A stretch of 64,000 nucleotides of DNA from Micavibrio sp. (GTDB lineage: Bacteria; Pseudomonadota; Alphaproteobacteria; UBA9219). The notes below the pieces were generated by a model. That model saw only the letters and a program-made list of their open reading frames with translations. It did no database searches and was not told the origin of the DNA. Numbering within the stretch: the first letter of the stretch is position 1; each line of letters opens with the position of its first letter. The stretch spans positions 5,442 through 69,441 of the forward strand of contig DYDA01000006.1 in NCBI GenBank assembly GCA_020718105.1, read 5' to 3'. Shown one piece after another: positions 38,619 through 62,590 of this stretch. A program made the translations under genes and the position numbers.

Positions 38619-38874
38619 CTGGTTCGATTGTTTTAGTAAGGCGTGGGTGCGTAGCTCAGCGGTAGAGCATTACCTTCACACGGGCTAGAGATTGTGTGTC
38701 ACAGGTAAGGTTCTAAGGGCTATGGTTCAGGCTGTGGTTTGATTGTTTTAGTAAGGCGTGGGTGCGTAGCTCAGCGGTAGAGCATTACCTTCACACGGGC
38801 TAGAGATTGTGTGTCACAGGTAAGGTTCTAAGGGCTATGGTTCAGGCTGTGGTTTGATTGTTTTAGTAAGGCGT
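38619..38874. repeat. tandem array (2.2 copies, 115-bp period); each unit is the first ~39 nt of tRNA-Val plus ~76 nt of non-tRNA sequence
   Basis: gggtgcgtagctcagcggtagagcattaccttcacacgg at 38645 and 38760, each followed by gctagagattgtgtgtcacagg...gtaaggcgtg; intact tRNA starts at 38875. Confidence 0.85.
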
Positions 38875-38949
38875 GGGTGCGTAGCTCAGCGGTAGAGCAT
38901 TACCTTCACACGGTAGGGGTCACAGGTTCAATCCCTGTCGCACCCACCA
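38875..38949 (+). tRNA. tRNA-Val (anticodon CAC), CCA encoded
   Basis: Acceptor gggtgcg/cgcaccc, anticodon loop ttCACac, T-arm acaggttcaatccctgt; 75 nt. Confidence 0.85.
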
Positions 38950-39043
38950 CGCTTTTCAAGGGGTTAGCGATTTTGTAACCAGCTCAAAACATTACAGCTG
39001 TAATGTTTGATTATGGATGCGCGGCCACACGTGAGCACTCCAT

Positions 39044-41617
39044 TTAATCGAGATAATCAGTCTTAAGTTTTTTCAGATCACCATAGGCCGTGGCCAGTTG
39101 GCTTGCCGACGGCGGAGCATCATCATGCGGTCCGGGGGTCACATAAGAGTGAGCTGCCTTAAGTTTGCCTGTATGAGCAGGGTCTTTTGTGAGTAGTAAA
39201 TATACCGAATTGCTAAATTCGCCGAAGTTTTTCCCGTCATAGTCGGTGATTGAAGCCATTGCTTCGCCATCTTTAAGGCGCTTTCTAACGAGAATTTCTT
39301 TGCAAAAGCGCTCAATCGCCGCACGTGTTTTTATGGCACCCTCTCTGCGCTGGTCAGGGTCGTGCGATCTAATATATGGTTGAACTTTCGCAAGCATGGT
39401 AGCGAGCCCATCATATTGATTTCTAATTTCAGTCCCTAAAAGTGGGTCATTACGGATAATCTGAAACTGTGCCACCTGTTTATGTTCCCATCGATGCCCG
39501 ATGTCTTTCCAGCTTGAATGATCTTGCGTTGTAACAATGACTTGAACGCCCTCATTCAATAATTCTTCAATGACAGTTTGGGCAAAATTGGGTCTAAAAT
39601 CGTCATCACTGGTAAGAACAGGATCGTCAAGAACGATAAAACCAGTTTTTTCCTGAACGGCCCGTGCAAGAAACATGGCCAAACCAAGACAATGCAGCTG
39701 CGATGTACTGAAAACGGCCACGGCATCCCGAAACTTTGGATCACTACAGTCGTCATTCGCAGATAAACCGACCTTAATATCAATGGTGCGGCGGGCTTTG
39801 CTGCTGCGTCGTTGAATGGCACCGAAAAACGAAGGCTCATTAGGACGTAAGAAATCCCACCACACTTTAACACCTCCACTCATCTCATCAAACTTTTCGT
39901 CGGCAACTTTACCATTACCCTTTTCAATTTCTTTTATCGCCTTATCAAGTTCTTTGAACTTCTGTTCATAAGCAGATGTTAACTCAATGGCTTTCCATAA
40001 TCTTTTTGTATCAACTGCAAGGCTGACCAATTCCTCCCACCCAGCGGTGTTGGTGCTTTGGTCAACCGCAATTTTGAGGGGTGTCCCAAGCAATTGTGCA
40101 GCAAGGCCATAGCTCTGCTGGGTTTGCTGATAGGTTATTTGTGTCTCGTATATGGTTGCTAAGACTTGAGTTAAGCCGACGGGATCATCCCAGTCATCAA
40201 GTGTGTCTTTAAGGCCAGCAATATAATGCTGTGCTCTAGCAATAGCCCGTCTGAATACTTTAGCGGACTGAATTAGGTGTCGTGTTGATACAGTCCAGTC
40301 TGCAACAATGGCGTCATCCTGAACAAGGGAGCGCAAACGCGCTATAGTAAAGCCTTTATAGCGTCGCGCGCCGGGCGTTTCTTGTGTGAATTTGGGCAAC
40401 GAAGCATCGAGGGACGATGATGTAGCTGACAAGCTTGCTTCTAAAATCTGGCATGCATGTTTTATGGCACGTTCAGCAGTTTGATATGTTTCAGTCGCCT
40501 TCACTTGATCACAGATCAGTTGAATACGTTCTGGTGTTAAGACAGCCTTAGTCCCACATAAAGGGCAATCGGCGGCATCATGACTTTTGCATTCGGGCAG
40601 CGAAAGGGCTGCTTTGAATAAATCAACTAATCGACGAGTTTCAGCATCGATTTTTTTGCGCTCTTCTATGAAAGATTTAACGGCATGATCAAGGAGAGAT
40701 GAATTGTTCTCCCATGGAGTAAATGGGCTGCGCACAAATAAGTCGAGAGGAAACGATTTTGCGCGGCGATTCTGTAGTTCAAGGCTGATCTGTGTGGATT
40801 GCTCCGGTAGTGTAACTGCCGGAGTGATTCCAAGACTGATTAAAAATGCTGCCGTTGTTGCAAGAATACTTTTTTCGACACCTTCCTGCGTTTTCGATTT
40901 GCGTATTGTGTTGGCAGTTTTCAATCCCGGTATAGCTTCGACAGTTTGAAGATAAACGATTTCACTTAATATGGGCGCAGGCATGCTCGCTATAAAAGTA
41001 GCTACACTGGCTCGGAAATCTTCTAAATCCTGAGTATCGAGGACAGCCCTAAAATAGGAGGCACGCTCGTTAGGCCCAGCAGAAAAAATATAACCTAGAG
41101 TGTGTTGTGCTAACACAGGCGCAATCAAAGGTGCTTGAGAAAGCTTAATGCCTAGTCGCAATAGGATATCGTCTTCTACACAAGACTTGCCGTCAATTTC
41201 TACTCTGCTTGTGCAACCCAGATTTCCTTTTTTATAATCTTCGAGTAGTATGCGCTTTAGATGCCTTATGGTTCCGTCACTGCAAAGCACTTCCGCAGCG
41301 ACAGAAACGGGAGCCGTGTCTGGGATATGAACATTGCGAAGGCAGTCTGAAAATTCTTCTTTCGAACTTGATTGCAGTTCCCGCCTGACAAGCTGGCCGG
41401 TTAATAGAAATTCGATGGCTTCAGTTAAACTTGTTTTACCCTGACTGTTCCCACCCCACAACACAGCAACGGTGCTGGGCAATTCAAAAGTTTGTTTTCC
41501 TGTGCCGAAGCTTCGGAAACCATGAACCTCAATCTTTTTTAACTGTGGACGTGTCACTGGACGCCTGTTTTTCTGTATAAAAGTCATTAATAGTTTGCGC
41601 CATGCGTTTATGTGCAT
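39044..41617 (-). CDS. Rad50/SbcC/SMC-like ABC ATPase with coiled-coil CxxC hook and extra C-terminal domain
   Basis: N-terminal Walker A GGNSQGKTSLTEA; central predicted coiled coil containing CPLCGT; C-terminal signature/Walker B (GFIVLDDP) and H-loop-like TTQDH; 857 aa (true start possibly Met11). Confidence 0.75.
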   Translation of the reverse strand: MHINAWRKLLMTFIQKNRRPVTRPQLKKIEVHGFRSFGTGKQTFELPSTVAVLWGGNSQGKTSLTEAIEFLLTGQLVRRELQSSSKEEFSDCLRNVHIPDTAPVSVAAEVLCSDGTIRHLKRILLEDYKKGNLGCTSRVEIDGKSCVEDDILLRLGIKLSQAPLIAPVLAQHTLGYIFSAGPNERASYFRAVLDTQDLEDFRASVATFIASMPAPILSEIVYLQTVEAIPGLKTANTIRKSKTQEGVEKSILATTAAFLISLGITPAVTLPEQSTQISLELQNRRAKSFPLDLFVRSPFTPWENNSSLLDHAVKSFIEERKKIDAETRRLVDLFKAALSLPECKSHDAADCPLCGTKAVLTPERIQLICDQVKATETYQTAERAIKHACQILEASLSATSSSLDASLPKFTQETPGARRYKGFTIARLRSLVQDDAIVADWTVSTRHLIQSAKVFRRAIARAQHYIAGLKDTLDDWDDPVGLTQVLATIYETQITYQQTQQSYGLAAQLLGTPLKIAVDQSTNTAGWEELVSLAVDTKRLWKAIELTSAYEQKFKELDKAIKEIEKGNGKVADEKFDEMSGGVKVWWDFLRPNEPSFFGAIQRRSSKARRTIDIKVGLSANDDCSDPKFRDAVAVFSTSQLHCLGLAMFLARAVQEKTGFIVLDDPVLTSDDDFRPNFAQTVIEELLNEGVQVIVTTQDHSSWKDIGHRWEHKQVAQFQIIRNDPLLGTEIRNQYDGLATMLAKVQPYIRSHDPDQRREGAIKTRAAIERFCKEILVRKRLKDGEAMASITDYDGKNFGEFSNSVYLLLTKDPAHTGKLKAAHSYVTPGPHDDAPPSASQLATAYGDLKKLKTDYLD

Positions 41618-41864
41618 CTACCTTTGAGCCACCAAGCCAAGCATCCAGCAGCACGCTTGCCAAGCCATTAGCAGTTAAGTGCGGACGAAGACGCGCGGCG
41701 TTTGATAACGGTCCAACTTCCGTTGGAGTATCAACAATAGCTAGAATTTCTGAAGTCTCTGATTTTTCCATTGTTCCTGCCTTGTCACAAACCATGCACA
41801 AGCCTATAAGGTTGCAGCCCTGCTTCGCAAGCCATTATATACATCAAGAGAAGTCTTGAAATTG

Positions 41865-42899
41865 CTATATACTTAATGCTTCCGGCTTTTGCCTAAAGTT
41901 CAAAGCACTTACCGCCCTTCTCAAATAATCCGGTGCATGCTTGCCATAGACCTTTTCCACCGTCTTTTCGCTGTCCCCCAACAACCGAGCTACCTCAGAC
42001 AAAGGAACCCCGTCCATAATCAGCCAAGTGGCCGCTGTGTGCCGCAGGACGTGTGGGCTGGCCGTGATGCCGCACTCTTTGCAAAGCCGCCTGAAGCCCG
42101 CTTTAACAGATGCAACGCGCTTACCATGATACTCGATTACATAGTCAGCCTCGGCCAGCTCTCTGGCCGTCTTCAAACTCTCATAAACGTCATCGTTCAT
42201 CGGGACAACGGCGCGACGCTTGTTGCCCCACCCTCGCCCGAAGTCCATAAGCCTGCTTTCAAAGTCAATTTGTTTCCAAGTCAGGTCCAAAATTGCGCCG
42301 GATCGGGCGGCTGTTGATATTGCAATCTGAATGAACAGCCTCATATGGTGCGACTTGGCCTTGCTCAACAGCAACTCTACTTGTTCTCGCTTCAACCACA
42401 GGTCACGGGGCGGCGGCTGATGCACAGGCATCTTAAAACGAGGCTGATGCGCGATCCAACGATTGCCTTCCGCAAAGTGAAGTGCTGCCTTGAGCGTCCC
42501 CAACTCGCGCAGGATCGTCCCATCCGATACACCACGTTCTTTGGCATATTTCAGCAAAAGGGCATTGCTGATATGATCGGGCTGAAGGTCTCCAAAGAAC
42601 TTATTCAAGGTTCTGGTGTGATGTTCAATGGTCTTCAGTGATCTTGTATTAACCCCATGTTCCTTTTTGTAGCGATCAAGAAGATACGCCAATGTCGGCT
42701 CTGGCGGCGGCGGTGGATTGTCTAATCCCGCGATGAATTGGGAGCGGTATTGCTCGGCTGCTCTCCAATCCGTTGTCCCCGTTGAAACGCGCCTTGTCTG
42801 CATCCCTGTTTGGGTTGAGACATCGCGCTCAGTCCAGACGATATAGATTGTGCCATTGTCATGCTGCCAGAATCTGTATTGTTCTTTGTTCCTCGACAT
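41865..42899 (-). CDS. int: tyrosine-type site-specific integrase
   Basis: C-terminal catalytic region with R..HxxR..Y signature (LRHTAATWL...VEKVYGKH); 344 aa. Confidence 0.9.
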   Translation of the reverse strand: MSRNKEQYRFWQHDNGTIYIVWTERDVSTQTGMQTRRVSTGTTDWRAAEQYRSQFIAGLDNPPPPPEPTLAYLLDRYKKEHGVNTRSLKTIEHHTRTLNKFFGDLQPDHISNALLLKYAKERGVSDGTILRELGTLKAALHFAEGNRWIAHQPRFKMPVHQPPPRDLWLKREQVELLLSKAKSHHMRLFIQIAISTAARSGAILDLTWKQIDFESRLMDFGRGWGNKRRAVVPMNDDVYESLKTARELAEADYVIEYHGKRVASVKAGFRRLCKECGITASPHVLRHTAATWLIMDGVPLSEVARLLGDSEKTVEKVYGKHAPDYLRRAVSALNFRQKPEALSI

Positions 42900-43140: not shown

Positions 43141-44109
43141 CTACGGCTCTAGCTTCGTCTGTTTGCCGACGGCAGATATAGGAAGTGGACTCTCTTTGGG
43201 TCGCAGGTTTGGCTCAATGGACTGTTTGCTCTTCAGGAACTCCACAGCCCGCGTTGCGTGTGCGGCTGCGGAGAAGATTAGCTTACGATCATCCTTGAGG
43301 GCCTTGAGCCAATGGTCGATATAGGCGGCATGGTCTTCACAGATTTCGGGCGTTATGCCTAAGTCTGCGCACAAGAACGCCGAGCCGATTTCGGCAACCA
43401 GCTCCTCCTTGGCATAGCCCTTATCACCCCAATCCTTCCGGCCAAAGTCGCGGTCAAGGCGGGTTTTATGTTTCGTCCAGTGCGTGACCTCATGGGACAA
43501 AGTGGCGTAATAGCTCTCGCTATCCTTAAAGGCATCGATCAACGGCATTTGGACGTAATCGGTGCTTTCCGCATAGAAAGCCCTATTACCGCCATGGCGG
43601 ATTAACGCGCCCGTGTTGCGGATAAAATGATCGACCTCATCCACACGTTGGCCGAGGGTTGGTTCGGGCTGATGGGTGGCGTGTTTATAGAATCGCTCAG
43701 GTAGGCCTTCGATTTGATCGATGTTGAAGACGTTATAGCCACGCAGAAACGAGCATTCTTTTTCTTCGCTCTCCCCCGTATGTTCATCTGTTTCTGTTTT
43801 CTTGGTCTTGTTGGCATAAACAATAAAGCTCGACTTTTCGCCTTTACGCACATGTGCGCCGTACTCTTCGGCTTGGGCAAAGGTCATCCATGTGGGGTTG
43901 AGATAGCCTTTCTCTAGTGTCGCTCCCCACAGGAGTAAGACATTCACGCCATTGTAAGGCTCACCGTTATGACGCAGGGGTCGGACAATGCGGCATCCGG
44001 CATTCTCGCCGCTCCAAGGTTTTTGCCAAGGCCGGACACCTTGTTCCAAATCGGCGATAATCTTGCTGGTCACGCGATCATACACATTCACAAAAGTTTC
44101 TTTGGTCAT
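43141..44109 (-). CDS. ardC: ArdC-like antirestriction protein (ssDNA-binding N-domain plus zincin metalloprotease domain)
   Basis: ArdC-N-like N-terminus and C-terminal HEVTHW (HExxH) motif; 322 aa. Confidence 0.85.
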   Translation of the reverse strand: MTKETFVNVYDRVTSKIIADLEQGVRPWQKPWSGENAGCRIVRPLRHNGEPYNGVNVLLLWGATLEKGYLNPTWMTFAQAEEYGAHVRKGEKSSFIVYANKTKKTETDEHTGESEEKECSFLRGYNVFNIDQIEGLPERFYKHATHQPEPTLGQRVDEVDHFIRNTGALIRHGGNRAFYAESTDYVQMPLIDAFKDSESYYATLSHEVTHWTKHKTRLDRDFGRKDWGDKGYAKEELVAEIGSAFLCADLGITPEICEDHAAYIDHWLKALKDDRKLIFSAAAHATRAVEFLKSKQSIEPNLRPKESPLPISAVGKQTKLEP

Positions 44110-44380
44110 GTTTCCTCCTATAGAAAACCCCGCGAGACAGGTGTCAGCGGGGCGGTTGATCGGATAGGTTCAGTACTATTGGTTTTTTATTTGTCCTTCT
44201 TCCTCCCCATCAGTTTGCGGATATGAAGCCTTTGGACGTAGCGGATTGCGAGCTTTTCCGATGTCCAAAGAATGATGGCCGTGCCGGGGACGATGACGCG
44301 AAAGATGCGCAAGCGGCGCGGCCTGACCAAGAACGTGTCGGTTTGGATGAAGGTTTTCTTTCTCATGAGCCTCCTTTCAC

Positions 44381-45136: not shown

Positions 45137-45188
45137 TCCGGCGCGTTGCCTTCGGACAAGGCTTGCAACACGGCCTGATGTGCCGTCA

Positions 45189-48870: not shown

Positions 48871-51528
48871 TTATTTGCGAAACTGCGCTGATAGTCCAGA
48901 GAGAGTTGTGTTGGGCCTAACAGCATCGTGAGGCACGAGAACGTATGTCCACGGCTTACCACCGTTCTCCATCTCGTGCTTCGTGGCCGCTTCGCACCAC
49001 TTGATGGCGGCACGGGCTTTTTGTTGAACGGCGTCCGCTTCAACTTCATCGGCACGTTTGGTTTCGATGAGGAACTTCTCTCCGTCTGTTTCTACGACAA
49101 AATCCGGTTCATATCCTTCGTTATCATTTGTGTAGATTTTGACGTCATTTCGGAGGGGTTTGAACCATTTGAGGACTTCCTTGCTATCTTCGAGTAAAAT
49201 GGCCATCTGGCGCTCGGTGTCTGAATCAAACTTCTGCTGCGGGTAAAGGCACTTTGAAAAGCCCTCAAATACCATCCCGCGTATATCCGAAACATTGGCG
49301 AGGGTCTGCCGAAAGTTTCTGACTTTTTCTCCCGCATCAATTGTCACCGCGCCCATTTTAGGCTGTTCAAAACCACGTGTGACTGAGGCCTGAAAATCCG
49401 TATAGCCAAGTTTTACATGCTCATTCATCTGCGCGTGGATTAAATCGGCGAGTTTCGTGCGGTAAAATTGGACAACATTTTTGGTTTTATCGGCATCCTT
49501 ACCCAAATATGAAGCGACATACGCCACCATCTGCCCCGCCAGCTTGTAAAGCAGGTCTGCGTGATCGTCATAAGAGACGTCATCCTTATCAATCAAAACG
49601 GATACGACGTAATCTTCTAAACGCGCTTCTTGCCCTATAGCTTCTCCCTTGGCCATTTCTTCGCGTTCAGAGGTGCGTAAATGCTGGATGAGGATTTTAT
49701 CGTCCACTGGCTGAAGGTGCGGAAGGTCTTTTGTGTTTAGATCAAAATCCGTGAACTCATAGCTATTTGATCCAATAGGTGTCACGGTCACGCGCGGAAT
49801 ATCGATGGTGTTATCGATATAGGCCTTAATTTGCCTCCGCACTATGTCTTCAACATTTGGCTTGTCCGCGATAACGTCAAGTGAGCCTTGTGCGGGCGTC
49901 ATTTTTTCCATCACGCGAGCAACCATTTTTTCCTGAACCTCTGGGTTCAAAAGGTTCCGTGAGCTTGGTAAATGTTCTTGTTCTTTAATCGCCTCAAAAA
50001 CGGCTCTTGCAATAGGCCGCTCAGCTTCAGTAAATAAAGGCTGTTGCTCTGGTTTTGTGCCTTCGCCAGAAATTATCCGTTCGATATTCGACTTAATCTC
50101 AACCGCCTGTTTGGGCTTTGCAGCAATGTCCTTACCAATTATTACACCAGTGCGGATGATAGAATGCTGATCGTTGGCCTCCTTGATAATTTCGTCAAAG
50201 CGGTCATGGGCAACGATGGTTAAACGATCCACGGCAGCAACGCCTGTGCGCTTGCCATAGGGCAAACGAAGGCCGCGCCCAATGGACTGCTCGACTAAAG
50301 TGCGTGAGTTGGCTGCACGCAAAGGCACAATGGTATAAAGGTTGGTAACGTCCCATCCTTCCTTCAGCATATTGACGTGAATGACGATTTCGGTCGGCTC
50401 ATTGGGATCTTCGACGGCAAGCAAACGTTGAACGGTCTCATCCTTTTCCTCGCCACGCTGGGCTGAGTGAACGGTGATAACGCGATCCTTGTAACGACCA
50501 TCAAAAAAGGCATCTGACTTGATCATCGCCATCAAGTTTTCGGCATGCGTCGTGTCCTGCGCCACCACAAGGATGAACGGTTTCACATAAGGTCGTGAAT
50601 TATTGTCGGCATAGACCTTCAACTCAGCCTTTGCGTTTTCATGAATGCAAATGGCGTCTTCCAGCTTGATCTTTTCGAGCTCGTCTTCCGTAAAATTCTT
50701 CGGGTTGAAGTTCTCACGCGTCGCAACCGCCGGTTCCTTCACATAGCCATCTTCCATCGCCTTATAAAGGGGGTAGCCGTAAATGACGTTTTTGAAAGGG
50801 ATGGCGTTCTTCCCGTTTTCAATTTGAGGCGTCGCGGACAGTTCAAGGCCGATAATAGGGTTCAGTTCGTTTAGTGCCCTGATGCCCGCCGAGGCGCGAT
50901 AACGGTGTGATTCATCCATCAGCAACACGAGATCGTCTAGTTTAGAAAGATATTCAAAATAGCTTTCGCCCAGATATTCCGAAAGCCGCTTGATGCGGGG
51001 TGCTGCACCTCCGCGCGTTTCGGAATTGATCTTGGAGATGTTGAAGATGTTGATATGGATGTTGTCAGCCTGTCCGTACAAATCCGTGCCGCGAATACCG
51101 CGCCCGCTTTCATAATTATCGCCCGTGATGACTTCCGGCGGCGTGATGGCAAGCTCGGCAATGCCTTGAAAGACGTATTTTGGCGTGTTGGGCGTAAAGT
51201 CGGCGATGAGCTTGTTATAGATCGTCAGGTTTGGTGCCAATACAAAGAAGTGTTTCATCCCATGCGCAAGATGCAAATAAGCAATGAATGCGCCCATAAG
51301 CCGAGTTTTGCCGACGCCCGTTGCAAGGGCAAAGCAGAGAGATGGAAAGTCTCGCTCAAAATCCTCAACACTCGGAAACTCGGACTTGATGGTCTCAAGA
51401 GCGGCGACCACGTCGCGATCTTTGTCGAGAGAGATGATCTCTGTCACACGCGCAAGAATCTCAAGCGACTCCTTCTGCGGTGTGCGGAGGGACAGACGGT
51501 TCGAAATGGCGTTGAGATGACGATTCAT
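48871..51528 (-). CDS. res: type III restriction enzyme Res subunit (SF2 helicase plus C-terminal PD-(D/E)xK nuclease)
   Basis: Walker A ATGVGKT, DEAH-like LMDESH, C-terminal PDFVVETDGEKFLIETK nuclease motif; 885 aa. Confidence 0.9.
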   Translation of the reverse strand: MNRHLNAISNRLSLRTPQKESLEILARVTEIISLDKDRDVVAALETIKSEFPSVEDFERDFPSLCFALATGVGKTRLMGAFIAYLHLAHGMKHFFVLAPNLTIYNKLIADFTPNTPKYVFQGIAELAITPPEVITGDNYESGRGIRGTDLYGQADNIHINIFNISKINSETRGGAAPRIKRLSEYLGESYFEYLSKLDDLVLLMDESHRYRASAGIRALNELNPIIGLELSATPQIENGKNAIPFKNVIYGYPLYKAMEDGYVKEPAVATRENFNPKNFTEDELEKIKLEDAICIHENAKAELKVYADNNSRPYVKPFILVVAQDTTHAENLMAMIKSDAFFDGRYKDRVITVHSAQRGEEKDETVQRLLAVEDPNEPTEIVIHVNMLKEGWDVTNLYTIVPLRAANSRTLVEQSIGRGLRLPYGKRTGVAAVDRLTIVAHDRFDEIIKEANDQHSIIRTGVIIGKDIAAKPKQAVEIKSNIERIISGEGTKPEQQPLFTEAERPIARAVFEAIKEQEHLPSSRNLLNPEVQEKMVARVMEKMTPAQGSLDVIADKPNVEDIVRRQIKAYIDNTIDIPRVTVTPIGSNSYEFTDFDLNTKDLPHLQPVDDKILIQHLRTSEREEMAKGEAIGQEARLEDYVVSVLIDKDDVSYDDHADLLYKLAGQMVAYVASYLGKDADKTKNVVQFYRTKLADLIHAQMNEHVKLGYTDFQASVTRGFEQPKMGAVTIDAGEKVRNFRQTLANVSDIRGMVFEGFSKCLYPQQKFDSDTERQMAILLEDSKEVLKWFKPLRNDVKIYTNDNEGYEPDFVVETDGEKFLIETKRADEVEADAVQQKARAAIKWCEAATKHEMENGGKPWTYVLVPHDAVRPNTTLSGLSAQFRK

Positions 51529-51533
51529 AGGGA

Positions 51534-52025
51534 TTATCCGATGTTAAGAAGTTCGCGCCGCTTGGAGTCAAAAGTATTAAACACATTCCGATTTACTGAT
51601 TTCAGTTGTTTGACAGAACGCTCAACAGATTCCATATACGAACTTTGGTCTGTGGGATGTCCTTCTTCAAGTGAAGTAAGCATATGAGACAAACAATTTT
51701 GCAAATCTGTATCATCTGGAAGCAATCCTTGGAGGGCTTTGATCGCTGCATTTGTACGAAAGGCTAGGTCGTAAGTTGGTTGATATATTTGAACCGAGCT
51801 TATCTGCTGCATAAAGTCAGATATAATATTAAAATGTGAGGCCAGCAGTTCAGCCTGTTGAATTCTTCGAGATTTGTTTGCTTCTTGAGCGGAACGTTCT
51901 GCCGCATCGCTTGAACGTTTAGAATCTCGTTTTGCCCACACGGAAATGCCTGTTCCGGTCGCGGACATACACAGGGCGAGAAAAGAGAGCCAATTTGCTA
52001 TATCGTCACTCATCGTCGCCTCCAA
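51534..52025 (-). CDS. hypothetical protein with N-terminal TM helix, between the mod remnant and res
   Basis: 163-aa ORF, 5-nt gap to res start, 20-nt overlap with the mod-fragment stop. Confidence 0.5.
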   Translation of the reverse strand: MEATMSDDIANWLSFLALCMSATGTGISVWAKRDSKRSSDAAERSAQEANKSRRIQQAELLASHFNIISDFMQQISSVQIYQPTYDLAFRTNAAIKALQGLLPDDTDLQNCLSHMLTSLEEGHPTDQSSYMESVERSVKQLKSVNRNVFNTFDSKRRELLNIG

Positions 52026-52914
52026 ACAAAGAGGGTTCGGAGGATTTGGCTTTTGCCTTGGCCTTAGCTTTCAGTTTTCGCGGGGTTGGGATATCGACTT
52101 GCTCCTCTTCGGCCAAGGGAAGGTTTTGGACGTTGAGGCTGTAATCGTCGTGGCCCCATTCGCATTTGGTCAGCACGGCGCGGGGGATTTTGCGCAGGGT
52201 TAGGTTGGGGAAGGCCTCGGCTTTGCCGCGAAACGCCGAGCAGCAGATGAGGAGGCTTCGATTGTCGCCCACTTCCTCGGACAGGGCGGCGAGTTGCGCC
52301 TGATCTAACGTTTGGGTGGTGACATAGATGAAATCCGTCTCGGTCGAATGCCCTTGCTGCCAATAAACGCTGTCACTCGGCGCATAGGTGAAGCCCATCA
52401 GCTTGCACATGGCCTGCGTCAGCATGACCGCGTTGTATTCCTTGTTGATGACAGCCTGGCTGTACTTGTCCATCGTGATGAGGGATGGTGCGAGCGCGAA
52501 ATACCGAAAACCGCCGCCGCCTTTCCACGCTGCCGCTTCGGTAATGCCACCTTTGTCCTCGCCATCAATGACTTTCTTGAGGCGCGGGATGATATGAGTA
52601 TGGCAATGCTCGCCAAGCTCAATCATAATCCAACGTCGCCTCATTTTATGGGCGACAGCACCCGTTGTGCCGGAACCAGCAAAGGAGTCGAGGACAAGGT
52701 CGTTAGGGTTGGTAGCAATATGAAGAAGTGTATGAATTAGACGTTCAGGTTTGGGTGTTGAAAAGACATCATTGCCAAAAAGAGCTAACATTTCCTTCAT
52801 GGCATCTTGATTGTGTCCAGCTAGTGTATGTTTCCATACCCGTCCCCCAAACAAGCCCTGTTCGTACGAGAGCACCGCAAGTTGCCACATATTCGTCTTC
52901 CGTGGAAAAGACAC
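52006..52914 (-). pseudogene. mod: truncated type III DNA methyltransferase (Mod), C-terminal fragment only
   Basis: Contains motif I region (VFSTPKPERLIHTLLHIATNPNDLVLDSFAGSGTTG) and a Mod-like C-terminus. The N-terminal DPPY motif and target-recognition domain are absent. Its 5' 146 nt overlap the upstream ORF in another frame. Confidence 0.65.
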
Positions 52915-53428
52915 CAGATTCTATCGTTTCCTTCTGTGTGCGCCTATAAGCCTCGGTCGCAGCCCTACTGATTTCTTTTGTGTCTAATTGATTGGCTTTT
53001 TCTTTCTCGATTTGCTCATTGAAAGATTTGTGCAGCTTTCCTAAGACAATGATCTCTTCATATCGCAGAGAATCGATAATGTCCGCATAATATAAAAACT
53101 CATCGGCTCTCAATACTTTTGCTGCCTTTTGCCCTGCGATAATGCGCGCAAGAAGTCGAAGATTTGTTCGCGCGGTTCCTTCCTGTGCAGCTCGCATGTA
53201 GCGATAAACGATTGCTGCCACTTCATCAACCTCACAGGCTTCCCATATATCTTTTTCTCCCGCGCTGATTTCTAAGAGTAAAATTTCTCTGGCTGCACTC
53301 AGTCGTATTTTGAAAAGGTTTTGAACCGCAATTCCTGCTACAGAGCCGCCAAAAACATCGAAAGCCCCTGCGATGTCTCCAATAAGGGCGCTATAATACT
53401 GCGGAAGATGTATCGTTTTATCTTCCAT
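52769..53428 (-). CDS. hypothetical protein, last gene of the SNF2 operon
   Basis: 219-aa ORF; start overlaps the MBL gene stop by 11 nt; no recognizable motifs. Confidence 0.55.
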   Translation of the reverse strand: MEDKTIHLPQYYSALIGDIAGAFDVFGGSVAGIAVQNLFKIRLSAAREILLLEISAGEKDIWEACEVDEVAAIVYRYMRAAQEGTARTNLRLLARIIAGQKAAKVLRADEFLYYADIIDSLRYEEIIVLGKLHKSFNEQIEKEKANQLDTKEISRAATEAYRRTQKETIESGVFSTEDEYVATCGALVRTGLVWGTGMETYTSWTQSRCHEGNVSSFWQ

Positions 53429-54371
53429 AGGAAGGCCTGCTTTTATAAATGTTTCTTAGGCTATCTAGGTTCATCGAAAGAAAATGATGCTTTTTGATGG
53501 CAAAGTCCTTGTACGAAGACACTTTTGTTGAGTTTGATATCAAATTGTAGACCCTAAAGACACTATTGTGCGGGGGTAAAGATTGGGCAATTATGTCGCC
53601 TGTTTTTGTTGTAAAGATCGGGATATCTAGGTCGAACAAACGATCTCGAACATCTTGTCTAGGATGTTCAAACTGATTGTCATAATTGCTGCTGCATACA
53701 GCCAGTTGAGGTCGGACACGTTCCAAAAAGTTTTTTGAGTTAGTAGGACAGTCTGCTCCATGATGAGCTAAAATAAGGATGTCAATTTCTCTCTTGAAAA
53801 TGCCACATCCCCTGAGGCGAGAGCCAATGTTCACATCTTCAACGTCGCCAAGACTTGCAACATTAAAACAGCCCTCACGAAACACCTTGACTGTCGAATT
53901 GTCATTGGCTTTTTCGAAAAAGATCTTAGGGCCATAAAAAACGTTTCTGTATCCAAGTTCTTCTGCTGATTTCAATCCATTAATGTAGTTTGGGTTTACA
54001 CACACACAACTCACAGGGGTGCCATCTATGGTTCCTTTGGCTTCATAATTCTCGATGGCTTTTTGGCATGCCTTGCCATTATCACTTTCGGGCAAATATC
54101 CGGGGTATTCAACCTGTTTGGGTTTTAGCGTTTCAAGAATACTTTTGAGATCAGAAAAAGTGCAGTGATCTTGATCCCAGCTGGTAATATGTAAGCAATC
54201 AATAAACTGCTTACCGCAAAGTTCCATTTCTTGGTGTATATTTGCGCGGTTAACGTCATTCAGTCGCGCTTCAATCAAGGTAAACTTTCCTGCACCAAAG
54301 TATGAAAAGGAAGAACCCGCTTGCCCCAGCTGGTATGCGCGAAAGCGAGTGACAATTTCTTGTGCGGCCAT
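53418..54371 (-). CDS. MBL-fold metallo-hydrolase related to the ComEC/Rec2 beta-lactamase domain
   Basis: ITSWDQDHC (S/H-x-D-x-DH) and LAHHGADCPTNSKNFLERVRPQLAVCSS resemble ComEC motifs (HADQDHIGG / KVAHHGSKTSS...FL..V.P..A..S); 317 aa. Confidence 0.7.
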   Translation of the reverse strand: MAAQEIVTRFRAYQLGQAGSSFSYFGAGKFTLIEARLNDVNRANIHQEMELCGKQFIDCLHITSWDQDHCTFSDLKSILETLKPKQVEYPGYLPESDNGKACQKAIENYEAKGTIDGTPVSCVCVNPNYINGLKSAEELGYRNVFYGPKIFFEKANDNSTVKVFREGCFNVASLGDVEDVNIGSRLRGCGIFKREIDILILAHHGADCPTNSKNFLERVRPQLAVCSSNYDNQFEHPRQDVRDRLFDLDIPIFTTKTGDIIAQSLPPHNSVFRVYNLISNSTKVSSYKDFAIKKHHFLSMNLDSLRNIYKSRPSYGR

Positions 54372-54862
54372 TATAACTCTTCCTTTCTGCCTCCAGAAGT
54401 TTTAGCGGCTCGAGACCTTTCTATTCCCCAAACGGCCTCAGAAACTTCTTCAAGTTTTTTAATAAATTTATCGACGTTGAGGCCAGCAACGAAAGCAAAG
54501 GCATAAAACCCAATTTCGCTTGCATCAGGCTGGATGCTGGATTCCAGCACGATCAACCCTGCCTTAAGAAACAGATAACTCGCACCGCCACAAGTAAGAC
54601 TCGCGATTGGGCGTAAGAAATACCATACCTGCCACCTGGAGTCCCATTGATCGTAAACACAGACGTTCAAATAGACTCCTCTCAAACAATAGAGGAAGCC
54701 ACCAAGTCCACCAGAAAATGCACAGATAAGCCCAACTTTGTATGGAACTAAAAGGGGTTCATGACCTGCTAACACAAAAGCAATCCCTGCAAGGTTAGCG
54801 ACGGCACATAAGACAAGGTAAAAGATAATAACTACAATCATTCGAGCCCCCACCTCGCGCAA
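54371..54862 (-). CDS. small integral membrane protein (3-4 predicted TM helices)
   Basis: Hydrophobic 163-aa ORF; overlaps SNF2 3' end by 25 nt and abuts the MBL gene start. Confidence 0.65.
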   Translation of the reverse strand: MREVGARMIVVIIFYLVLCAVANLAGIAFVLAGHEPLLVPYKVGLICAFSGGLGGFLYCLRGVYLNVCVYDQWDSRWQVWYFLRPIASLTCGGASYLFLKAGLIVLESSIQPDASEIGFYAFAFVAGLNVDKFIKKLEEVSEAVWGIERSRAAKTSGGRKEEL

Positions 54863-57846
54863 AACAGCGGTTCAATCTCATGCCTGCTGTCCTGCAATTG
54901 TTTTTCTAGTTGATTAATAAGCTCTTCGCGTCTTGCGTCAACTTTGTCTTGGCTGGTGAAAAGTTCGTGCCGCTTTTGTGAGCGGCGTTTTTCAAAGGCA
55001 GCTTTTTGTTTTTGAAACGCCAGCTTTTCCGCTAGACTTATCAATTGCTTAGACTGGCGGTCTGCCTCGCGGATGTCGCGGTCAAGTTGCTTGAGTTCAA
55101 GCTCTAGCCCCGTCTTCAGGTCTTCGGCCCAGCGGTCGAGCTTATCCAGCTCTTCCTCAAAATAGTGGTGATTGCTGGCTTCCGATTCGTTCAAAAGCAA
55201 GGTCATCCGGTTCTGGCGGGCGGTTTCGATGATGGCTGCATAAGGACATGAGCGGAAATCTTCCGAGCACGATGCTGAAAGGAGAAGCAGCTTCTCGCCA
55301 AACTCTGGTAGGAGGATCACGCCGCTTTCATTGCAGGCGGTGAAGATGAGAGATTCCGTTTCCTCAAACGTATTGATCGTCAGCTTGTCCAGCCAGAGCC
55401 AGCCTCGTTTGCCGCACTGTTCGTCCAGCAACGCAACTTTGTGCGGATGAGAAGAAAGATCAAACGTCAACGTCACGAGAGGAGTCTCGATATCACGCCC
55501 CTTTTGGATTACACGCTCGCCCATAAGATCGGACAGGCGATAAGGATAGCCTGTGACAGGAACCTTGGCCGTCCCCTTATGGAGCCGCTCCAATGGATCG
55601 ATGGCAGCTACAGCTTTTGTTTCCAGATAATGATAAATGGGAGTGCGGTCGCCTTCGCTGGGGCGTTCGCCTTTGGCAATAAAATCGGGATCGTCTCCGA
55701 AAATTAGTTTCTCGTCGTTGAAGACGAAGGTTCCATCGTAGATGAATTTCGTCAGCTCCCAAAAATGATGGGTCACGATATCAAGGCGCTGTTTGGTTGC
55801 TTCCATACTGAATTTCAAATGTCGTGTGACATCCTCGTCGAAATGCTCGAACAACATATTGCGCGTTTCGGCTATGCGGGCTTGGATTGGCTCTTCCATT
55901 TCGGATTGAAGGCGCGCAAAGGCTTCTTCAATTTCCTTGGGGTGGCGGCAGGTTTCAAAGATATCCAAAATACGCTTTTCAAAATCAATGCCGGACTCAA
56001 CGCGGCCTAGCACCTCATCTGATGATCCAAAGACACCGTCAAAAAGCTGAAACTTCTCTTTCAGTAGTTCATAGATACGCTGGTCAGCGAGATTGTCTTG
56101 GTTCAGGAAGTTAATGACGACCACGTCGTGCTTTTGGCCATAACGATGGCATCGGCCAATGCGCTGCTCAATGCGCTGAGGGTTCCAAGGCAGGTCGTAA
56201 TTGACAATCAAAGAACAGAACTGAAGGTTGATGCCTTCGGCGGCAGCTTCAGTGGCGATCATCACCTCGGCATGATCCCGGAAGAAATCAACAAGCGCCA
56301 TACGCATATCGACATTCTTGGAGCCGGAGATACGGCCTGTGGTGGCGTTCTTCTCCTGCCACATGCCGTAGATGTCTTTGGAAAGCTCATCCGTATTCTG
56401 TCCATTAAAAGTCACGACCTTGCCGCGAAAGCCGTTGTCTTCAAGATATTCTTTCAGATAACGCTGGGTGCGGCTGGATTCCGTGAAAACGAGAGCTTTG
56501 CGCGCGCCGCCCAACACACCCATACGGGAAAAACCGGATTGAAGTGCGGATAAAAGCGCTTTGGCTTTGGTCTCTATTTTGATGGAACGGGCAAGGGCGG
56601 CAAAGCCTTCGATCTGTTTGATCTCGTAGTTCAGTTTTTCAATGTCGATGTCGCTGTGGTTGGGTTGGGTGGCAGCGTGTTCTTCTTCCTCTGCTGCCTC
56701 GGCATATTCGATATCGATATCCTGTCCGAATATAAACGCGCCGCGCAAGTTCAGTTTCTCTTCTTTGCGGGTCTCTCGCATTTTCTCAAGGCGCTCTTTG
56801 ATGGTTTGCAACGTGCCAACCAATGCATAAGCTGACGATGCTAGAAGCTTGCGGATAACGAGAACGACCAGCTTTCTCTGTGCCCACGGAATAGCATAGG
56901 TATCTTGCTGGAGGAGGAAGTCAGAGACCTCGTCATAAAGTCTTTGTTCTTCTGCTGACAAACTAAACGGCTGCAGCATGGCTTCGCGTTTCGTATAACG
57001 GATATACTCCAGAACTTGCCGCCGAAGCGTGCGCTTAACAAAAGGCGCGAGGCGTGATTTGAGGTCGTCGATATTTGGGTTATTATTTCCATAAGCGGAT
57101 TTGAACGTATCAATGCCACCAAAGATCCTGTCATCAATCAATGAGGCAAGGCCGTAAAGCTCCAGAAGGGAGTTTTGCAGCGGTGTTGCTGTCAAAAGCA
57201 CTTTTTTGTGATCAGCCAGAGCCGCCTGAATCGTGCGGCCCATTTTGTTGTCTTTTTTGAAGAGATTTCGCAGCTTGTGCGCTTCATCGATCACAACCAT
57301 ATGCCATGGCATTGCTTTAAGTGCGTCGGCGTAACGATTGGCAAACTGATAAGAGATAATCACAACGCCTTTGAAGTCAAAAGGATCGCTGCCACTCTGC
57401 TGTCGTTCTGTGTAATTGCTGCTTTCAAGCACAAGGGTTGGAAGGTTGAATTTTTCTTCAAGCTCTATTGACCATTGGCGGCGCAGAACAGCGGGGCATA
57501 TGACAACAAGCCGTCGCTTATGCTCTGCCCAAAGTTGGCAAAGCAAGATACCAGCCTCAATAGTTTTTCCAAGGCCGACCTCATCGGCCAGCATAACGCC
57601 TTTGGAAAGCGGCGAGCGTAGTGCAAAGAGAGCCGCTTCAATTTGGTGTGGATTTAAATCTACGGCAGCATCAAAAAGCGAGGTGGTAAGGCGATCAACA
57701 ACGGTGGCGGACTTCTTTATCGAAAGCTCATGTGCAAAGTATTTCGCGTGATAGGGAGTGATGGACGTCTTTGTTCCTTTGTTCTCCTGCCAAAAAGGTT
57801 CTGTTTCTGCTTTCATTCGTCCAGTATCCAGTCCCAATTTCCACAC
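54838..57846 (-). CDS. SNF2-family helicase/ATPase with ~400-aa C-terminal extension including a coiled-coil
   Basis: SNF2 N-domain (DLNPHQIEAAL, LADEVGLGKT, DEAH-like VIDEAHKLRN) and helicase C-domain (GGEGINLQ..., QRIGRCHRYGQ); 1002 aa. Confidence 0.9.
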   Translation of the reverse strand: MWKLGLDTGRMKAETEPFWQENKGTKTSITPYHAKYFAHELSIKKSATVVDRLTTSLFDAAVDLNPHQIEAALFALRSPLSKGVMLADEVGLGKTIEAGILLCQLWAEHKRRLVVICPAVLRRQWSIELEEKFNLPTLVLESSNYTERQQSGSDPFDFKGVVIISYQFANRYADALKAMPWHMVVIDEAHKLRNLFKKDNKMGRTIQAALADHKKVLLTATPLQNSLLELYGLASLIDDRIFGGIDTFKSAYGNNNPNIDDLKSRLAPFVKRTLRRQVLEYIRYTKREAMLQPFSLSAEEQRLYDEVSDFLLQQDTYAIPWAQRKLVVLVIRKLLASSAYALVGTLQTIKERLEKMRETRKEEKLNLRGAFIFGQDIDIEYAEAAEEEEHAATQPNHSDIDIEKLNYEIKQIEGFAALARSIKIETKAKALLSALQSGFSRMGVLGGARKALVFTESSRTQRYLKEYLEDNGFRGKVVTFNGQNTDELSKDIYGMWQEKNATTGRISGSKNVDMRMALVDFFRDHAEVMIATEAAAEGINLQFCSLIVNYDLPWNPQRIEQRIGRCHRYGQKHDVVVINFLNQDNLADQRIYELLKEKFQLFDGVFGSSDEVLGRVESGIDFEKRILDIFETCRHPKEIEEAFARLQSEMEEPIQARIAETRNMLFEHFDEDVTRHLKFSMEATKQRLDIVTHHFWELTKFIYDGTFVFNDEKLIFGDDPDFIAKGERPSEGDRTPIYHYLETKAVAAIDPLERLHKGTAKVPVTGYPYRLSDLMGERVIQKGRDIETPLVTLTFDLSSHPHKVALLDEQCGKRGWLWLDKLTINTFEETESLIFTACNESGVILLPEFGEKLLLLSASCSEDFRSCPYAAIIETARQNRMTLLLNESEASNHHYFEEELDKLDRWAEDLKTGLELELKQLDRDIREADRQSKQLISLAEKLAFQKQKAAFEKRRSQKRHELFTSQDKVDARREELINQLEKQLQDSRHEIEPLFCARWGLE

Positions 57847-62452: not shown

Positions 62453-62590
62453 GAACCAAGTCCTCCTTATATGGTTGTGCGAGCTTTTCATTCTGTGGAG
62501 GGCCGATGCCCGCTTCAATCGGCCTTTTCATATAAAATCTGTAACCGCGTTATATTTTTTCGTTCTTTGTGCTCGAAAAGCAGATAAAAG

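What the first reader, a model, noticed from the sequence alone, without database searches (positions are those of the whole stretch)
39044..41617. Standalone 857-aa Rad50/SbcC-like ABC ATPase with a CxxC zinc-hook motif next to the island integrase
There is a Walker A motif at the N-terminus and signature/Walker B/H-loop-like motifs near the C-terminus. They are separated by roughly 500 aa of predicted coiled coil that contains CPLCGT, which resembles the Rad50 zinc hook. An extra ~150-aa C-terminal domain follows. No SbcD/Mre11-type nuclease partner is adjacent; only a possible 90-aa upstream ORF. Single-gene SMC-like ATPases on mobile elements are typical of abortive-infection and plasmid-restriction systems (Lamassu, Wadjet, OLD and Septu logic), but this one lacks the usual partner genes.
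Basis: partly seen in the sequence, partly recalled or inferred. Interest (0 to 1): 0.6.

Follow-up and report, generated by a model that had tools for sequence, protein, structure and literature searches.

The report
Zinc-hook ATPase defence gene pair
The flagged gene is real, but it is one half of a conserved two-gene module: a tiny acidic protein plus a Rad50-like zinc-hook ATPase that carries a probable RNA-cutting tail. The module usually sits beside or inside restriction-modification operons, so it is most likely an uncharacterised relative of the RloC/PrrC and Lamassu anti-phage systems.

Summary
The ORF and its motifs are real. The likely CDS is 39044-41557 (-), 837 aa from a GTG start. 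It has an intact Walker A, Q-loop, signature and Walker B (LDDP), an invariant CPLC hook between two helices, and a ~125-aa C-terminal helical domain.

It is not standalone. An 80-aa acidic protein (41529-41771, -) overlaps the ATPase start by 29 nt. A homologue sits in the same position in 46 of 46 related loci across many phyla.

The C-terminal domain occurs only in this family (232 cluster representatives among 1.84 billion). It carries invariant R-x3-E-x3-K and H-D. About 40% of divergent members have a canonical HEPN R-x6-H, and its best fold matches by TM-score are HEPN proteins, though none is significant.

Homologues lie inside Type I hsd operons (3 loci), directly after a SNF2/methylase/Res module (3 loci; the window holds that module 7 kb away), or in defence islands. 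None is near SbcD.

Best reading: an RloC/PrrC-like, long-LmuB-like DNA-sensing ATPase that switches on a fused RNase, with the small protein as regulator. I rate it a new variant of a known kind, of moderate interest. RNase activity, the trigger and the defence phenotype are all untested.

The parts
39044..41557 (-). CDS of the 837-aa zinc-hook ABC ATPase with fused C-terminal domain (GTG start; the longest ORF runs up to 41617)
   Evidence: identical to P0001 as called in GCA_017973835.1
41529..41771 (-). Small acidic partner gene (80 aa from ATG 41771, preceded by AAGGCAGGA; ORF open from TTG 41801). Its stop overlaps the ATPase start by 29 nt.
   Evidence: an HMM of the small protein hits once, directly upstream of the ATPase, in 46 of 46 loci
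41429..41461 (-). Walker A / P-loop (LWGGNSQGKTS)
   Evidence: N37, G40 and K41 invariant
39848..41101 (-). Helical insert between the two head lobes (residues 153-570 of the 837-aa protein)
   Evidence: AlphaFold2 secondary structure
40556..40567 (-). CPLC zinc-hook motif at the apex loop
   Evidence: both Cys invariant in 30 of 30 divergent sequences, Pro in 29 of 30
39680..39715 (-). ABC signature motif (VFSTSQLHCLGL)
   Evidence: S617, S619 and Q620 invariant
39599..39643 (-). Walker B and D-loop (GFIVLDDPVLTSDDD); hhhhDD type
   Evidence: sub-threshold AAA_13 and PDC-S06 matches centre here
39515..39544 (-). H-loop position, TQD in this subfamily (THD in 16 of 30 of the wider family)
39047..39418 (-). 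C-terminal helical bundle, candidate HEPN-like effector domain
39299..39325 (-). RAAIERFCK: invariant R-x3-E-x3-K on the long helix of the C-terminal domain
39122..39127 (-). Invariant His-Asp (H811-D812) just before the last helix
41834..41839 (-). Perfect TATAAT in the 64-nt gap between the integrase stop and the small ORF; possible own promoter (weak -35 TTTCAA 16 nt upstream)
   Evidence: read directly; not reported by the consensus scan
41865..42899 (-). Context: tyrosine integrase, same strand, directly upstream
38875..38949 (+). Context: tRNA-Val(CAC), 95 nt from the ATPase stop; probable integration site of the element
48871..57846 (-). Context: SNF2 helicase, unknown ORF, N6_N4 methylase (split into two ORFs) and ResIII/RE_endonuc. 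The same module lies directly upstream of the pair in L008, L043 and L017.

Best explanation
This is a two-gene anti-phage or anti-foreign-DNA module built like RloC/PrrC on a long-LmuB/Rad50 chassis.

**Shown by computation**
- The 837-aa protein is an ABC ATPase head split by a helical arm that ends in a CxxC hook.
- A four-to-five-helix C-terminal domain follows. It carries the HEPN-type residues R-x3-E-x3-K and N/T-x3-H-D.
- A small acidic protein is always encoded just upstream and translationally coupled.
- The pair lives in restriction-modification operons, defence islands and mobile elements.

**Inferred mechanism**
- Two ATPase chains dimerise through zinc at the hook.
- At rest the heads are apart and the small protein keeps the complex silent, in the manner of an antitoxin or of LmuC.
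- A DNA signal then promotes ATP-driven head engagement. The signal could be free ends, damaged or unmodified DNA, or failure or inhibition of the neighbouring restriction enzyme.
- Each C-terminal domain hangs directly off a head. Head engagement would therefore pair the two domains into a composite HEPN-style RNase site.
- The active RNase would cut tRNA or other RNA, stop translation and abort the infection or halt the invaded cell.
For: **Fold and ATPase motifs**
- Rad50/SMC fold: Foldseek E 4e-13 to 1e-7 against Rad50, Smc, JetC and MukB heads. Pfam SMC_N scores 50 bits, above its cut-off of 40.
- Walker A, signature, Walker B and both hook cysteines are invariant at 26-51% identity.
- The protein has the features reported for long LmuB: about 800 aa, Walker B hhhhDD and a single CxxC (PMC12663957). 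PADLOC LmuB models are the top hits, E 1e-17 to 4e-15.

**C-terminal domain**
- Confident model, pLDDT 85. The hits with the highest TM-scores are HEPN proteins: 1ufb 0.53, 2q00 0.50, 1wol 0.47, 8xeh 0.46.
- R745, E749, K753, H811 and D812 are invariant. E-x3-K is the second HEPN hallmark (PMC3710099).
- R at -7 from the invariant His gives R-x6-H in 12 of 30 divergent members. N at -4 occurs in 26 of 30.
- An 870-aa sister family is homologous across the head C-lobe and the R-x3-E-x3-K helix (hhalign 99.6%, E 4e-24). It has invariant RYLNKGTH, an R-x6-H motif.
- R-x3-E...H is the PrrC/RloC catalytic triad (PMC2610378).

**Link to the PrrC/RloC Pfam family**
- 11 of 30 members hit Pfam AAA_13 at E<=0.01.
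- One plasmid-borne member passes the AAA_13 cut-off, 42.2 bits against 36.

**Partner gene**
- Present in 46 of 46 loci, and also in three further divergent loci.

**Genomic context**
- Order hsdM, small gene, ATPase, hsdS, hsdR in L027, L028 and L053.
- Directly after a SNF2/DUF4391/methylase/Res module in L008, L043 and L017.
- Next to Hachiman plus an integrase in L046.
- At least 13 of about 35 distinct loci hold restriction-modification genes within 8 kb.

**Precedent**
- RloC's DNA-dependent ATPase and its zinc hook gate its RNase (PMC3458546).
Against: - No experiment exists for any member of the family.
- The HEPN assignment rests on motifs and non-significant fold matches (best Foldseek E 0.3). 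No Pfam, PADLOC or PDB sequence match was found for the domain.
- The window protein and its subfamily lack the Arg and Asn of the R-x6-H motif (S804, T807). They also have Gln in place of the H-loop His. Both ATP hydrolysis and RNase chemistry may therefore differ or be weak.
- The window protein scores only 12 bits on AAA_13 against a cut-off of 36.
- A direct comparison with bona fide RloC could not be made.
- The role of the small protein is pure inference. It matches nothing in Pfam or PADLOC.
- In the window the pair is 7 kb from the restriction genes, and the methylase there looks split.
Confidence: 0.55

Rival explanations
1. A reduced Lamassu (ABC-3C) system. The ATPase is a long-type LmuB and the small upstream protein is a miniature LmuC 'middle component'. 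The C-terminal domain replaces LmuA, either as a fused effector of unknown chemistry (not necessarily an RNase) or as a docking domain for an effector encoded elsewhere. DNA ends would be sensed as in Lamassu.
For: - LmuB models are the best PADLOC hits, at 62, 57 and 53 bits.
- Length of about 800 aa, a DD Walker B and a single CxxC match long LmuB.
- In Lamassu operons LmuC lies directly upstream of LmuB and binds near the hook. The small gene here occupies that position.
- Loss of components is documented within Lamassu.
Against: - No LmuA-like gene is adjacent in any annotated context.
- None of 21 small proteins matches any PADLOC LmuC model.
- The conserved core of the small protein is only about 45 aa.
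- The LmuB hits are partial.
- The invariant R/E/K/H/D residues in the C-terminal domain point to an enzyme rather than a docking module.
Confidence: 0.25
2. A toxin-antitoxin-like addiction module that stabilises the integrative mobilisable element or the neighbouring restriction-modification genes. The small acidic protein would be a labile antitoxin and the ATPase-HEPN-like protein the toxin. Phage defence would be only a side effect.
For: - The gene order is typical of type II TA pairs: small gene first, stop overlapping the start of the large gene.
- All the small proteins are acidic, pI 4.0-6.5.
- HEPN toxins are commonly held by antitoxins (PMC3710099).
- The pair occurs on islands and plasmids next to integrase, relaxase and ArdC.
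Against: - An 837-aa ATPase with a zinc hook is far more elaborate than a TA toxin requires.
- Many copies are chromosomal and sit inside hsd operons with no mobile-element genes.
- This reading overlaps the main explanation rather than excluding it.
Confidence: 0.12
3. A DNA repair or recombination factor (SbcC/Rad50-like) that serves the element's integration, excision or transfer, with the C-terminal domain acting as a protein or DNA interaction module.
For: - Rad50/SbcC fold and zinc hook.
- RefSeq attaches the GO term 'double-strand break repair' to related plasmid proteins.
- The gene is adjacent to the integrase.
Against: - No SbcD/Mre11 partner was found in any locus.
- NCBIfam sbcc and rad50 scores are 11 and 17 bits, against cut-offs of 478 and 454.
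- The family is rare and patchy across phyla.
- It is embedded in restriction operons and defence islands.
- The C-terminal domain has conserved catalytic-type residues.
Confidence: 0.05

Closest known systems
RloC (Geobacillus kaustophilus prototype; Davidov & Kaufmann 2008, Klaiman et al. 2012)
   Same: - Single polypeptide of about 800 aa.
- ABC ATPase interrupted by a helical insert with a CxxC zinc hook.
- C-terminal helical domain with an R-x3-E...H triad of HEPN type.
- Occasional linkage to restriction-modification genes, integrases and ArdC.
- GTG start and apparently weak expression signals.
   Different: - The window protein scores far below the Pfam AAA_13 cut-off (12 bits against 36).
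- The invariant His lies 61 residues after the Glu, against 36-52 in RloC. A non-conserved His lies at 45.
- There is an obligatory small upstream partner, which the RloC papers read here do not mention.
- Linkage to restriction-modification genes is much more frequent.
- This subfamily has an H-loop Gln.
- The C-terminal domain profile finds only this family among 1.84 billion representatives.
PrrC anticodon nuclease (E. coli prr locus)
   Same: - ABC ATPase plus a C-terminal R-x3-E...H RNase domain.
- DDP-type Walker B.
- Some homologues are embedded inside a Type I hsd operon, as prrC is.
   Different: - PrrC has no coiled-coil or zinc-hook insert and is about 400 aa.
- PrrC is silenced by the restriction enzyme itself, not by a dedicated small protein.
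- The window copy is not inside an hsd operon.
Long-type Lamassu LmuB (with LmuC and LmuA)
   Same: - Rad50/SbcC-derived head of about 800 aa.
- Single CxxC hook and hhhhDD Walker B.
- Best PADLOC hits.
- A small gene directly upstream, where lmuC lies.
   Different: - No separate LmuA effector.
- The extra domain is fused to the ATPase C-terminus.
- The small protein is much smaller and shows no detectable similarity to LmuC.
Rad50/SbcC-Mre11/SbcD
   Same: Head fold, helical arm and zinc hook of the CP[LV]CG type.
   Different: - No nuclease partner.
- Shorter arm.
- Fused C-terminal domain.
- Defence-island context.
- Fails the curated sbcc and rad50 models.
870-aa 'AAA family ATPase' of enterobacterial plasmids and ICEs (e.g. 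WP_102803754.1, Klebsiella pNDM-IMP-2)
   Same: - Homologous head C-lobe and R-x3-E-x3-K helix (hhalign 99.6%).
- CxxC hook.
- His-Asp/Glu before the last helix.
- Lies next to restriction genes on mobile elements.
   Different: - Has a fused ~80-aa N-terminal extension and no separate small gene. The two are not detectably related.
- Keeps a canonical R-x6-H motif.
- Itself uncharacterised.

Membership tests
Rad50/SbcC | ABC ATPase head split by a helical arm with an apical CxxC zinc hook | tested here: met
   Foldseek against Rad50/SMC heads, E 4e-13. CPLC invariant, lying between helices 286-319 and 342-386.
Rad50/SbcC | Co-encoded Mre11/SbcD phosphoesterase partner | tested here: not met
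   None in the window or in any of the roughly 15 distinct Pfam-annotated contexts.
Rad50/SbcC | Passes the curated sbcc or rad50 models | tested here: not met
   TIGR00618 scores 11.4 bits against 478.5. TIGR00606 scores 16.8 bits against 453.8.
RloC | ABC ATPase motifs plus a coiled-coil/zinc-hook insert (PMC2610378) | tested here: met
RloC | C-terminal triad Arg-X3-Glu-X36-52-His | tested here: inconclusive
   R745-x3-E749 is invariant. The invariant His (H811) is at X61. His795 at X45 fits the published range but is conserved in only 14 of 30 sequences.
RloC / PrrC (Pfam AAA_13, PF13166) | Score at or above the gathering cut-off of 36 bits | tested here: not met
   The window protein scores 12 bits. 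11 of 30 family members hit at E<=0.01, best 2.5e-6. One divergent plasmid member scores 42.2 bits. All matches cover the head or arm, not the nuclease domain.
RloC / PrrC | Anticodon nuclease activity regulated by ATPase, DNA and zinc hook | not testable with these tools
   Needs biochemistry.
PrrC | Gene embedded in a Type I hsd operon | tested here: not met
   Not so in the window. It does hold for homologues L027, L028 and L053.
HEPN superfamily | Alpha-helical bundle fold | tested here: inconclusive
HEPN superfamily | R-x4-6-H motif | tested here: not met
   The window protein reads S-Y-V-T-P-G-P-H. The motif is present as R-x6-H in 12 of 30 divergent homologues, and in the 870-aa sister family.
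HEPN superfamily | Second motif E-x3-[KR] | tested here: met
   E749-x3-K753 invariant in 30 of 30.
Lamassu (LmuB) | SMC-like head, zinc hook, variant Walker B (hhhhDD in the long type) | tested here: met
   VLDD, single CxxC, 837 aa. PADLOC LmuB hits are partial, E 1e-17.
Lamassu | Separate LmuA effector with an oligomerising C-terminal domain in the operon | tested here: not met
   No such gene next to the pair in any context.
Lamassu | LmuC middle component | tested here: inconclusive
   A small gene occupies the LmuC position, but none of 21 small proteins matches a PADLOC model.
Wadjet / OLD / Gabija / Septu / PARIS | JetABD partners, or a fused or adjacent TOPRIM or HNH nuclease | tested here: not met
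   Only the N-terminal P-loop region matches these models. No such partner or domain was found.

The most novel reading that the evidence does not exclude
The pair is a distinct, unnamed defence family and not merely a divergent RloC. It would act as a restriction-modification 'guard'. A dedicated small acidic protein couples a zinc-hook DNA sensor to a private effector domain found nowhere else. In the window's subfamily this domain has lost the canonical HEPN Arg and Asn, and the ATPase has lost its H-loop His. Its chemistry or its switch may therefore be new.
Probability: 0.35. Interest if true: 0.6.

Novelty: new variant of a known kind. Interest (0 to 1): 0.45.

Why it matters
ABC-ATPase sensors coupled to toxic effectors are a major theme of bacterial immunity (PrrC, RloC, Lamassu, PARIS, Gabija, OLD). 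How the sensor is kept silent and what fires it are still open questions for most of them.

This family offers a compact two-gene case with several useful properties:
- The sensor, hook and candidate effector sit on one chain.
- The regulator is a separate peptide of 60-90 aa.
- The genomic link to Type I and Type III-like restriction systems is unusually tight.

That makes the idea of a second line of defence, fired when restriction fails, directly testable. For genome annotation it also gives a rule. These 'AAA family ATPase' genes should be read together with the small overlapping upstream ORF, which is easily left uncalled or unnamed by annotators.

Tried and rejected
1. **Retrieving true RloC for comparison.** I rebuilt a 199-aa stretch of G. 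kaustophilus RloC from the OCR text of the paper's supplementary figure and searched with it. There were no hits, probably because the OCR text was scrambled. As a result no profile comparison with true RloC was possible.
3. **Sequence searches with the C-terminal domain.** Pfam, PADLOC and PDB sequences gave nothing.
4. **Gene fission or fusion idea.** I asked whether the small protein equals the N-terminal ~80-aa extension of the 870-aa sister family. hhalign probability was 0.1%, so this was rejected.
5. **Small protein as LmuC or another known family.** None of 21 sequences matched PADLOC, and the Pfam hits were noise only.
6. **Second attachment site.** A search for a repeat of the tRNA-Val 3' end inside the window found nothing. 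The far end of the island is not defined, or it lies beyond 64000.
7. **Phage genomes.** No homologue was found in 50,697 phage records.
8. **Krishnan et al. 2020 ABC ATPase classification.** The paper could not be read.
9. **Source names.** Cluster member names never say RloC. Alternative annotations of the same gene run from 837 to 952 aa. Some 870-895-aa alphaproteobacterial 'RloC orthologues' listed in 2008, with integrase, ArdC or Type III neighbours, might therefore be this family. This could not be checked.
Full report
**1.

The window has an 857-codon ORF at 39044-41617 on the minus strand. A search of 5.8 billion proteins found an identical 837-aa protein (GCA_017973835.1) and about 240 relatives. 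Nearly all are 835-841 aa. They align from codon 21 of the ORF, so the likely start is the GTG at 41557.

- Walker A GGNSQGKTS, Q-loop QH, signature FSTSQLHCLGL, and Walker B/D-loop FIVLDDPVLTSDDD.
- TQD stands where the H-loop His normally is.
- CPLCGT lies in the middle of the protein.

In an alignment of 30 relatives sharing only 26-51% identity, the following are invariant: the P-loop Lys, the signature Ser/Gln, the Walker B Asp, both hook cysteines, and five residues of the C-terminal domain. The wider family mostly has THD; the Gln is a feature of the window's subfamily.

**2. Structure**

AlphaFold2 on a 26-sequence alignment gave mean pLDDT 82.
- The head is a beta-rich lobe, residues 1-152.
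- An almost entirely helical insert spans 153-570. A low-confidence loop (322-334) holds the CxxC between helices 286-319 and 342-386.
- A second head lobe spans 571-713, followed by a helical C-terminal domain.

Foldseek against PDB returned Rad50, Smc, cohesin/condensin, MukB and JetC heads, E 4e-13 to 1e-7. Profile search of PDB sequences found only N-terminal P-loop similarity to Smc, Rad50 and RecF. I could not inspect coordinates, so the antiparallel packing of the arm is inferred rather than measured. The insert is about 418 aa, not ~500.

**3. It is not a standalone gene**

- Gene callers place a 59-88-aa gene in the same position in every homologous locus I fetched.
- Translations share a core N-[FL]-x-R-L-x-x-H-L-x4-L-A-x-x-L.
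- An HMM built from 27 of these proteins hits exactly once per locus, directly upstream of the ATPase, in 46 of 46 loci that include the ATPase start. Many of those loci were not used to build the model.
- The stop codon overlaps the ATPase start by 8-32 nt, 29 nt in the window, which suggests translational coupling.
- In the window the best start is ATG 41771, behind AAGGCAGGA, giving 80 aa.
- All the small proteins are acidic, pI 4.0-6.5.
- They match nothing in Pfam or PADLOC.

**4. The C-terminal domain**

Modelled alone it is a confident helical bundle, pLDDT 85. An exhaustive HMMER search of 1.84 billion cluster representatives with its profile found only 232 proteins at E<=1e-3. Nearly all of the 150 best hits listed are either fragments or ~830-860-aa proteins with the match at the C-terminal end. 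The domain therefore appears private to this family.

It has no significant match by sequence or by fold (best Foldseek E 0.3). The matches with the highest TM-scores are nonetheless HEPN proteins: 1ufb 0.53, 2q00 0.50, 1wol 0.47, 8xeh 0.46.

Invariant residues are R745, E749 and K753 on the long helix, and H811-D812 just before the last helix.
- E-x3-[KR] is one of the two HEPN hallmarks (PMC3710099).
- The other hallmark, R-x4-6-H, is absent from the window protein (S-Y-V-T-P-G-P-H). In the wider family, R sits at -7 from the His in 12 of 30 sequences and N at -4 in 26 of 30, giving R-x-L-N-P-G-x-H-D.
- R-x3-E...H is the catalytic triad of PrrC and RloC. Their published spacing is X36-52 (PMC2610378). 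Here the invariant His is at X61. A His at X45 fits the range but is conserved in only 14 of 30.

**5. Bridges to known families**

- PADLOC's best hits are LmuB models (E 1e-17, 2e-16, 4e-15). All other defence ATPases match only the P-loop region.
- Recent work describes 'long' LmuB as about 800 aa, with Walker B hhhhDD and a single CxxC, derived from SbcC (PMC12663957). Those are exactly the features seen here. In Lamassu operons a small LmuC is encoded directly upstream of LmuB and binds near the hook.
- Pfam AAA_13, the PrrC/RloC family, is sub-threshold for the window protein, 12 bits against 36. It hits 11 of 30 family members at E<=0.01.
- A divergent member on a Nitrosospira plasmid (817 aa, with its own small overlapping upstream ORF) passes the AAA_13 cut-off at 42.2 bits.
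- tblastn against plasmids also revealed an 870-aa family on enterobacterial plasmids and ICEs, next to restriction genes. It is homologous across the signature, Walker B and the R-x3-E-x3-K helix (hhalign 99.6%, E 4e-24). It has a CxxC hook and an invariant RYLNKGTH-[DE]-E, a canonical R-x6-H.

I could not obtain a bona fide RloC sequence for direct comparison.

**6. Genomic context**

In the window the gene order on the minus strand is:
1. SNF2 helicase
2. an unknown ORF
3. an N6_N4 methylase, split into two ORFs
4. a ResIII/RE_endonuc restriction subunit
5. a divergently oriented (+ strand) HTH gene with a 384-aa gene
6. MobC/NikA
7. a relaxase
8. ArdC
9. a tyrosine integrase
10. the small gene
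11. the ATPase

tRNA-Val follows 95 nt beyond the ATPase stop. This is an integrative mobilisable element carrying defence cargo.

Elsewhere:
- The pair lies between hsdM and hsdS-hsdR of Type I systems in three unrelated MAGs: L027, L028 and L053.
- It lies directly after the same SNF2/DUF4391/methylase/Res module in a Nitrospinota MAG, Rhodopseudomonas and Tardiphaga.
- It lies after or before other methylases and Res genes in L018, L020, L036 and L045.
- It lies next to a STAND NTPase in L055.

At least 13 of about 35 distinct loci carry recognisable restriction-modification genes within 8 kb. This is a lower bound, because the query set was limited. No locus has SbcD/Mre11. No phage genome has a homologue.

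The family is rare and patchy. It was found in 32 of 185,579 species genomes with subfamily-specific patterns, across Alpha-, Gamma- and Deltaproteobacteria, Nitrospinota, Planctomycetota, Actinomycetota, Aminicenantes, Gemmatimonadota and others.

**7. Mechanism**

Shown:
- The domain anatomy and conserved residues.
- The obligatory partner gene.
- The defence and restriction-linked context.

Inferred by analogy with Rad50, Lamassu and RloC:
- The ATPase dimerises through zinc at the hook.
- A DNA-dependent signal drives ATP-dependent head engagement.
- HEPN RNases need two domains to form an active site (established for Csm6, RNase L/Ire1 and Cas13). The domain here is attached directly to the head, so head engagement is a natural on-switch.
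- RloC provides precedent: its DNA-dependent ATPase activates its nuclease, and hook mutations de-repress it (PMC3458546).
- The small acidic protein is proposed to hold the off state, either as an antitoxin-like inhibitor or as an LmuC-like clamp.
- The Gln at the H-loop and the DD Walker B suggest slow hydrolysis, that is, a switch rather than a motor.
- Substrate, trigger and phenotype are unknown.

**8. Rival explanations**

- A reduced Lamassu system with a fused effector of other chemistry (0.25).
- A toxin-antitoxin-like addiction module for the element (0.12; this overlaps the main explanation).
- A repair or recombination factor (0.05).

**9. Verdict**

Three things were missed: the conserved partner, the built-in candidate effector, and the restriction-modification linkage.

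The protein meets the descriptive architecture of RloC and of long LmuB. It fails the curated models for RloC/PrrC, SbcC and Rad50, and it lacks LmuA. I file it as a new variant of a known kind, of moderate interest.

Noticed in passing
window 38620-38964: A 115-nt unit is repeated three times in tandem (100, 99 and 67% identity). Each unit carries the upstream region and the 5' half of tRNA-Val(CAC) up to the anticodon loop. Only the third copy continues into the complete tRNA (38875-38949). These may be scars of repeated integration or excision at this tRNA, or a duplicated promoter and 5' half.
   Followed up: partly
window 61985-62518 (-) and 58722-61847 (-): An ORF ends in GNCGTTICQTTVCQTTACQTTACQTAYCQSGRCKFKVPEGPI. 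This tail consists of Cys/Thr-rich pentapeptide repeats encoded by 15-nt tandem repeats at 62026-62100. The ORF lies directly upstream of a class II lanthipeptide synthetase (DUF4135 plus LANC_like, E 1e-95 and 3e-65). It is probably a lanthipeptide precursor with an unusual repeated core.
   Followed up: partly
window 48871-57846 (-): A Type III-like restriction module: SNF2 helicase, an unknown 317-aa ORF, an N6_N4 methylase and a ResIII/RE_endonuc subunit. The methylase is split into two ORFs (52006-52914 and 51534-52025), so it may be frameshifted or inactive. Intact versions of this module directly precede the small gene and ATPase in L008, L043 and L017.
   Followed up: partly
window 43141-45701 (-): ArdC (ArdcN plus zincin peptidase), a relaxase and MobC/NikA lie between the restriction module and the integrase, so the island is an integrative mobilisable element. 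ArdC homologues also lie near the pair in L021 and L032. The 2008 RloC paper noted ArdC next to two RloC genes.
   Followed up: partly
L048:3258-5867, L050:1626-4247, L051:1656-4283: A widespread 870-aa 'AAA family ATPase' on enterobacterial plasmids and ICEs, next to restriction genes. It has a CxxC hook, R-x3-E-x3-K, a canonical R-x6-H (RYLNKGTH) and a fused ~80-aa N-terminal extension. It is uncharacterised and homologous to the window protein in the head C-lobe.
   Followed up: partly
L035 4005-4331 and 8001-9359: In one alphaproteobacterial MAG the small gene lies about 3.7 kb upstream of the region that matches ATPase residues 385-836. This suggests that an insertion has disrupted the ATPase gene.
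   Followed up: no
window 46531-48350 (+): An HTH_3 regulator (222 aa) overlaps a 384-aa protein that has no Pfam match. The two are oriented divergently from the mobilisation genes. Function unknown.
   Followed up: no
L041 (Heimdallarchaeota MAG, 4.8-kb contig): The small gene and the start of the ATPase occur on a short contig binned as Asgard archaeon. This may be a binning artefact or a horizontal transfer.
   Followed up: no
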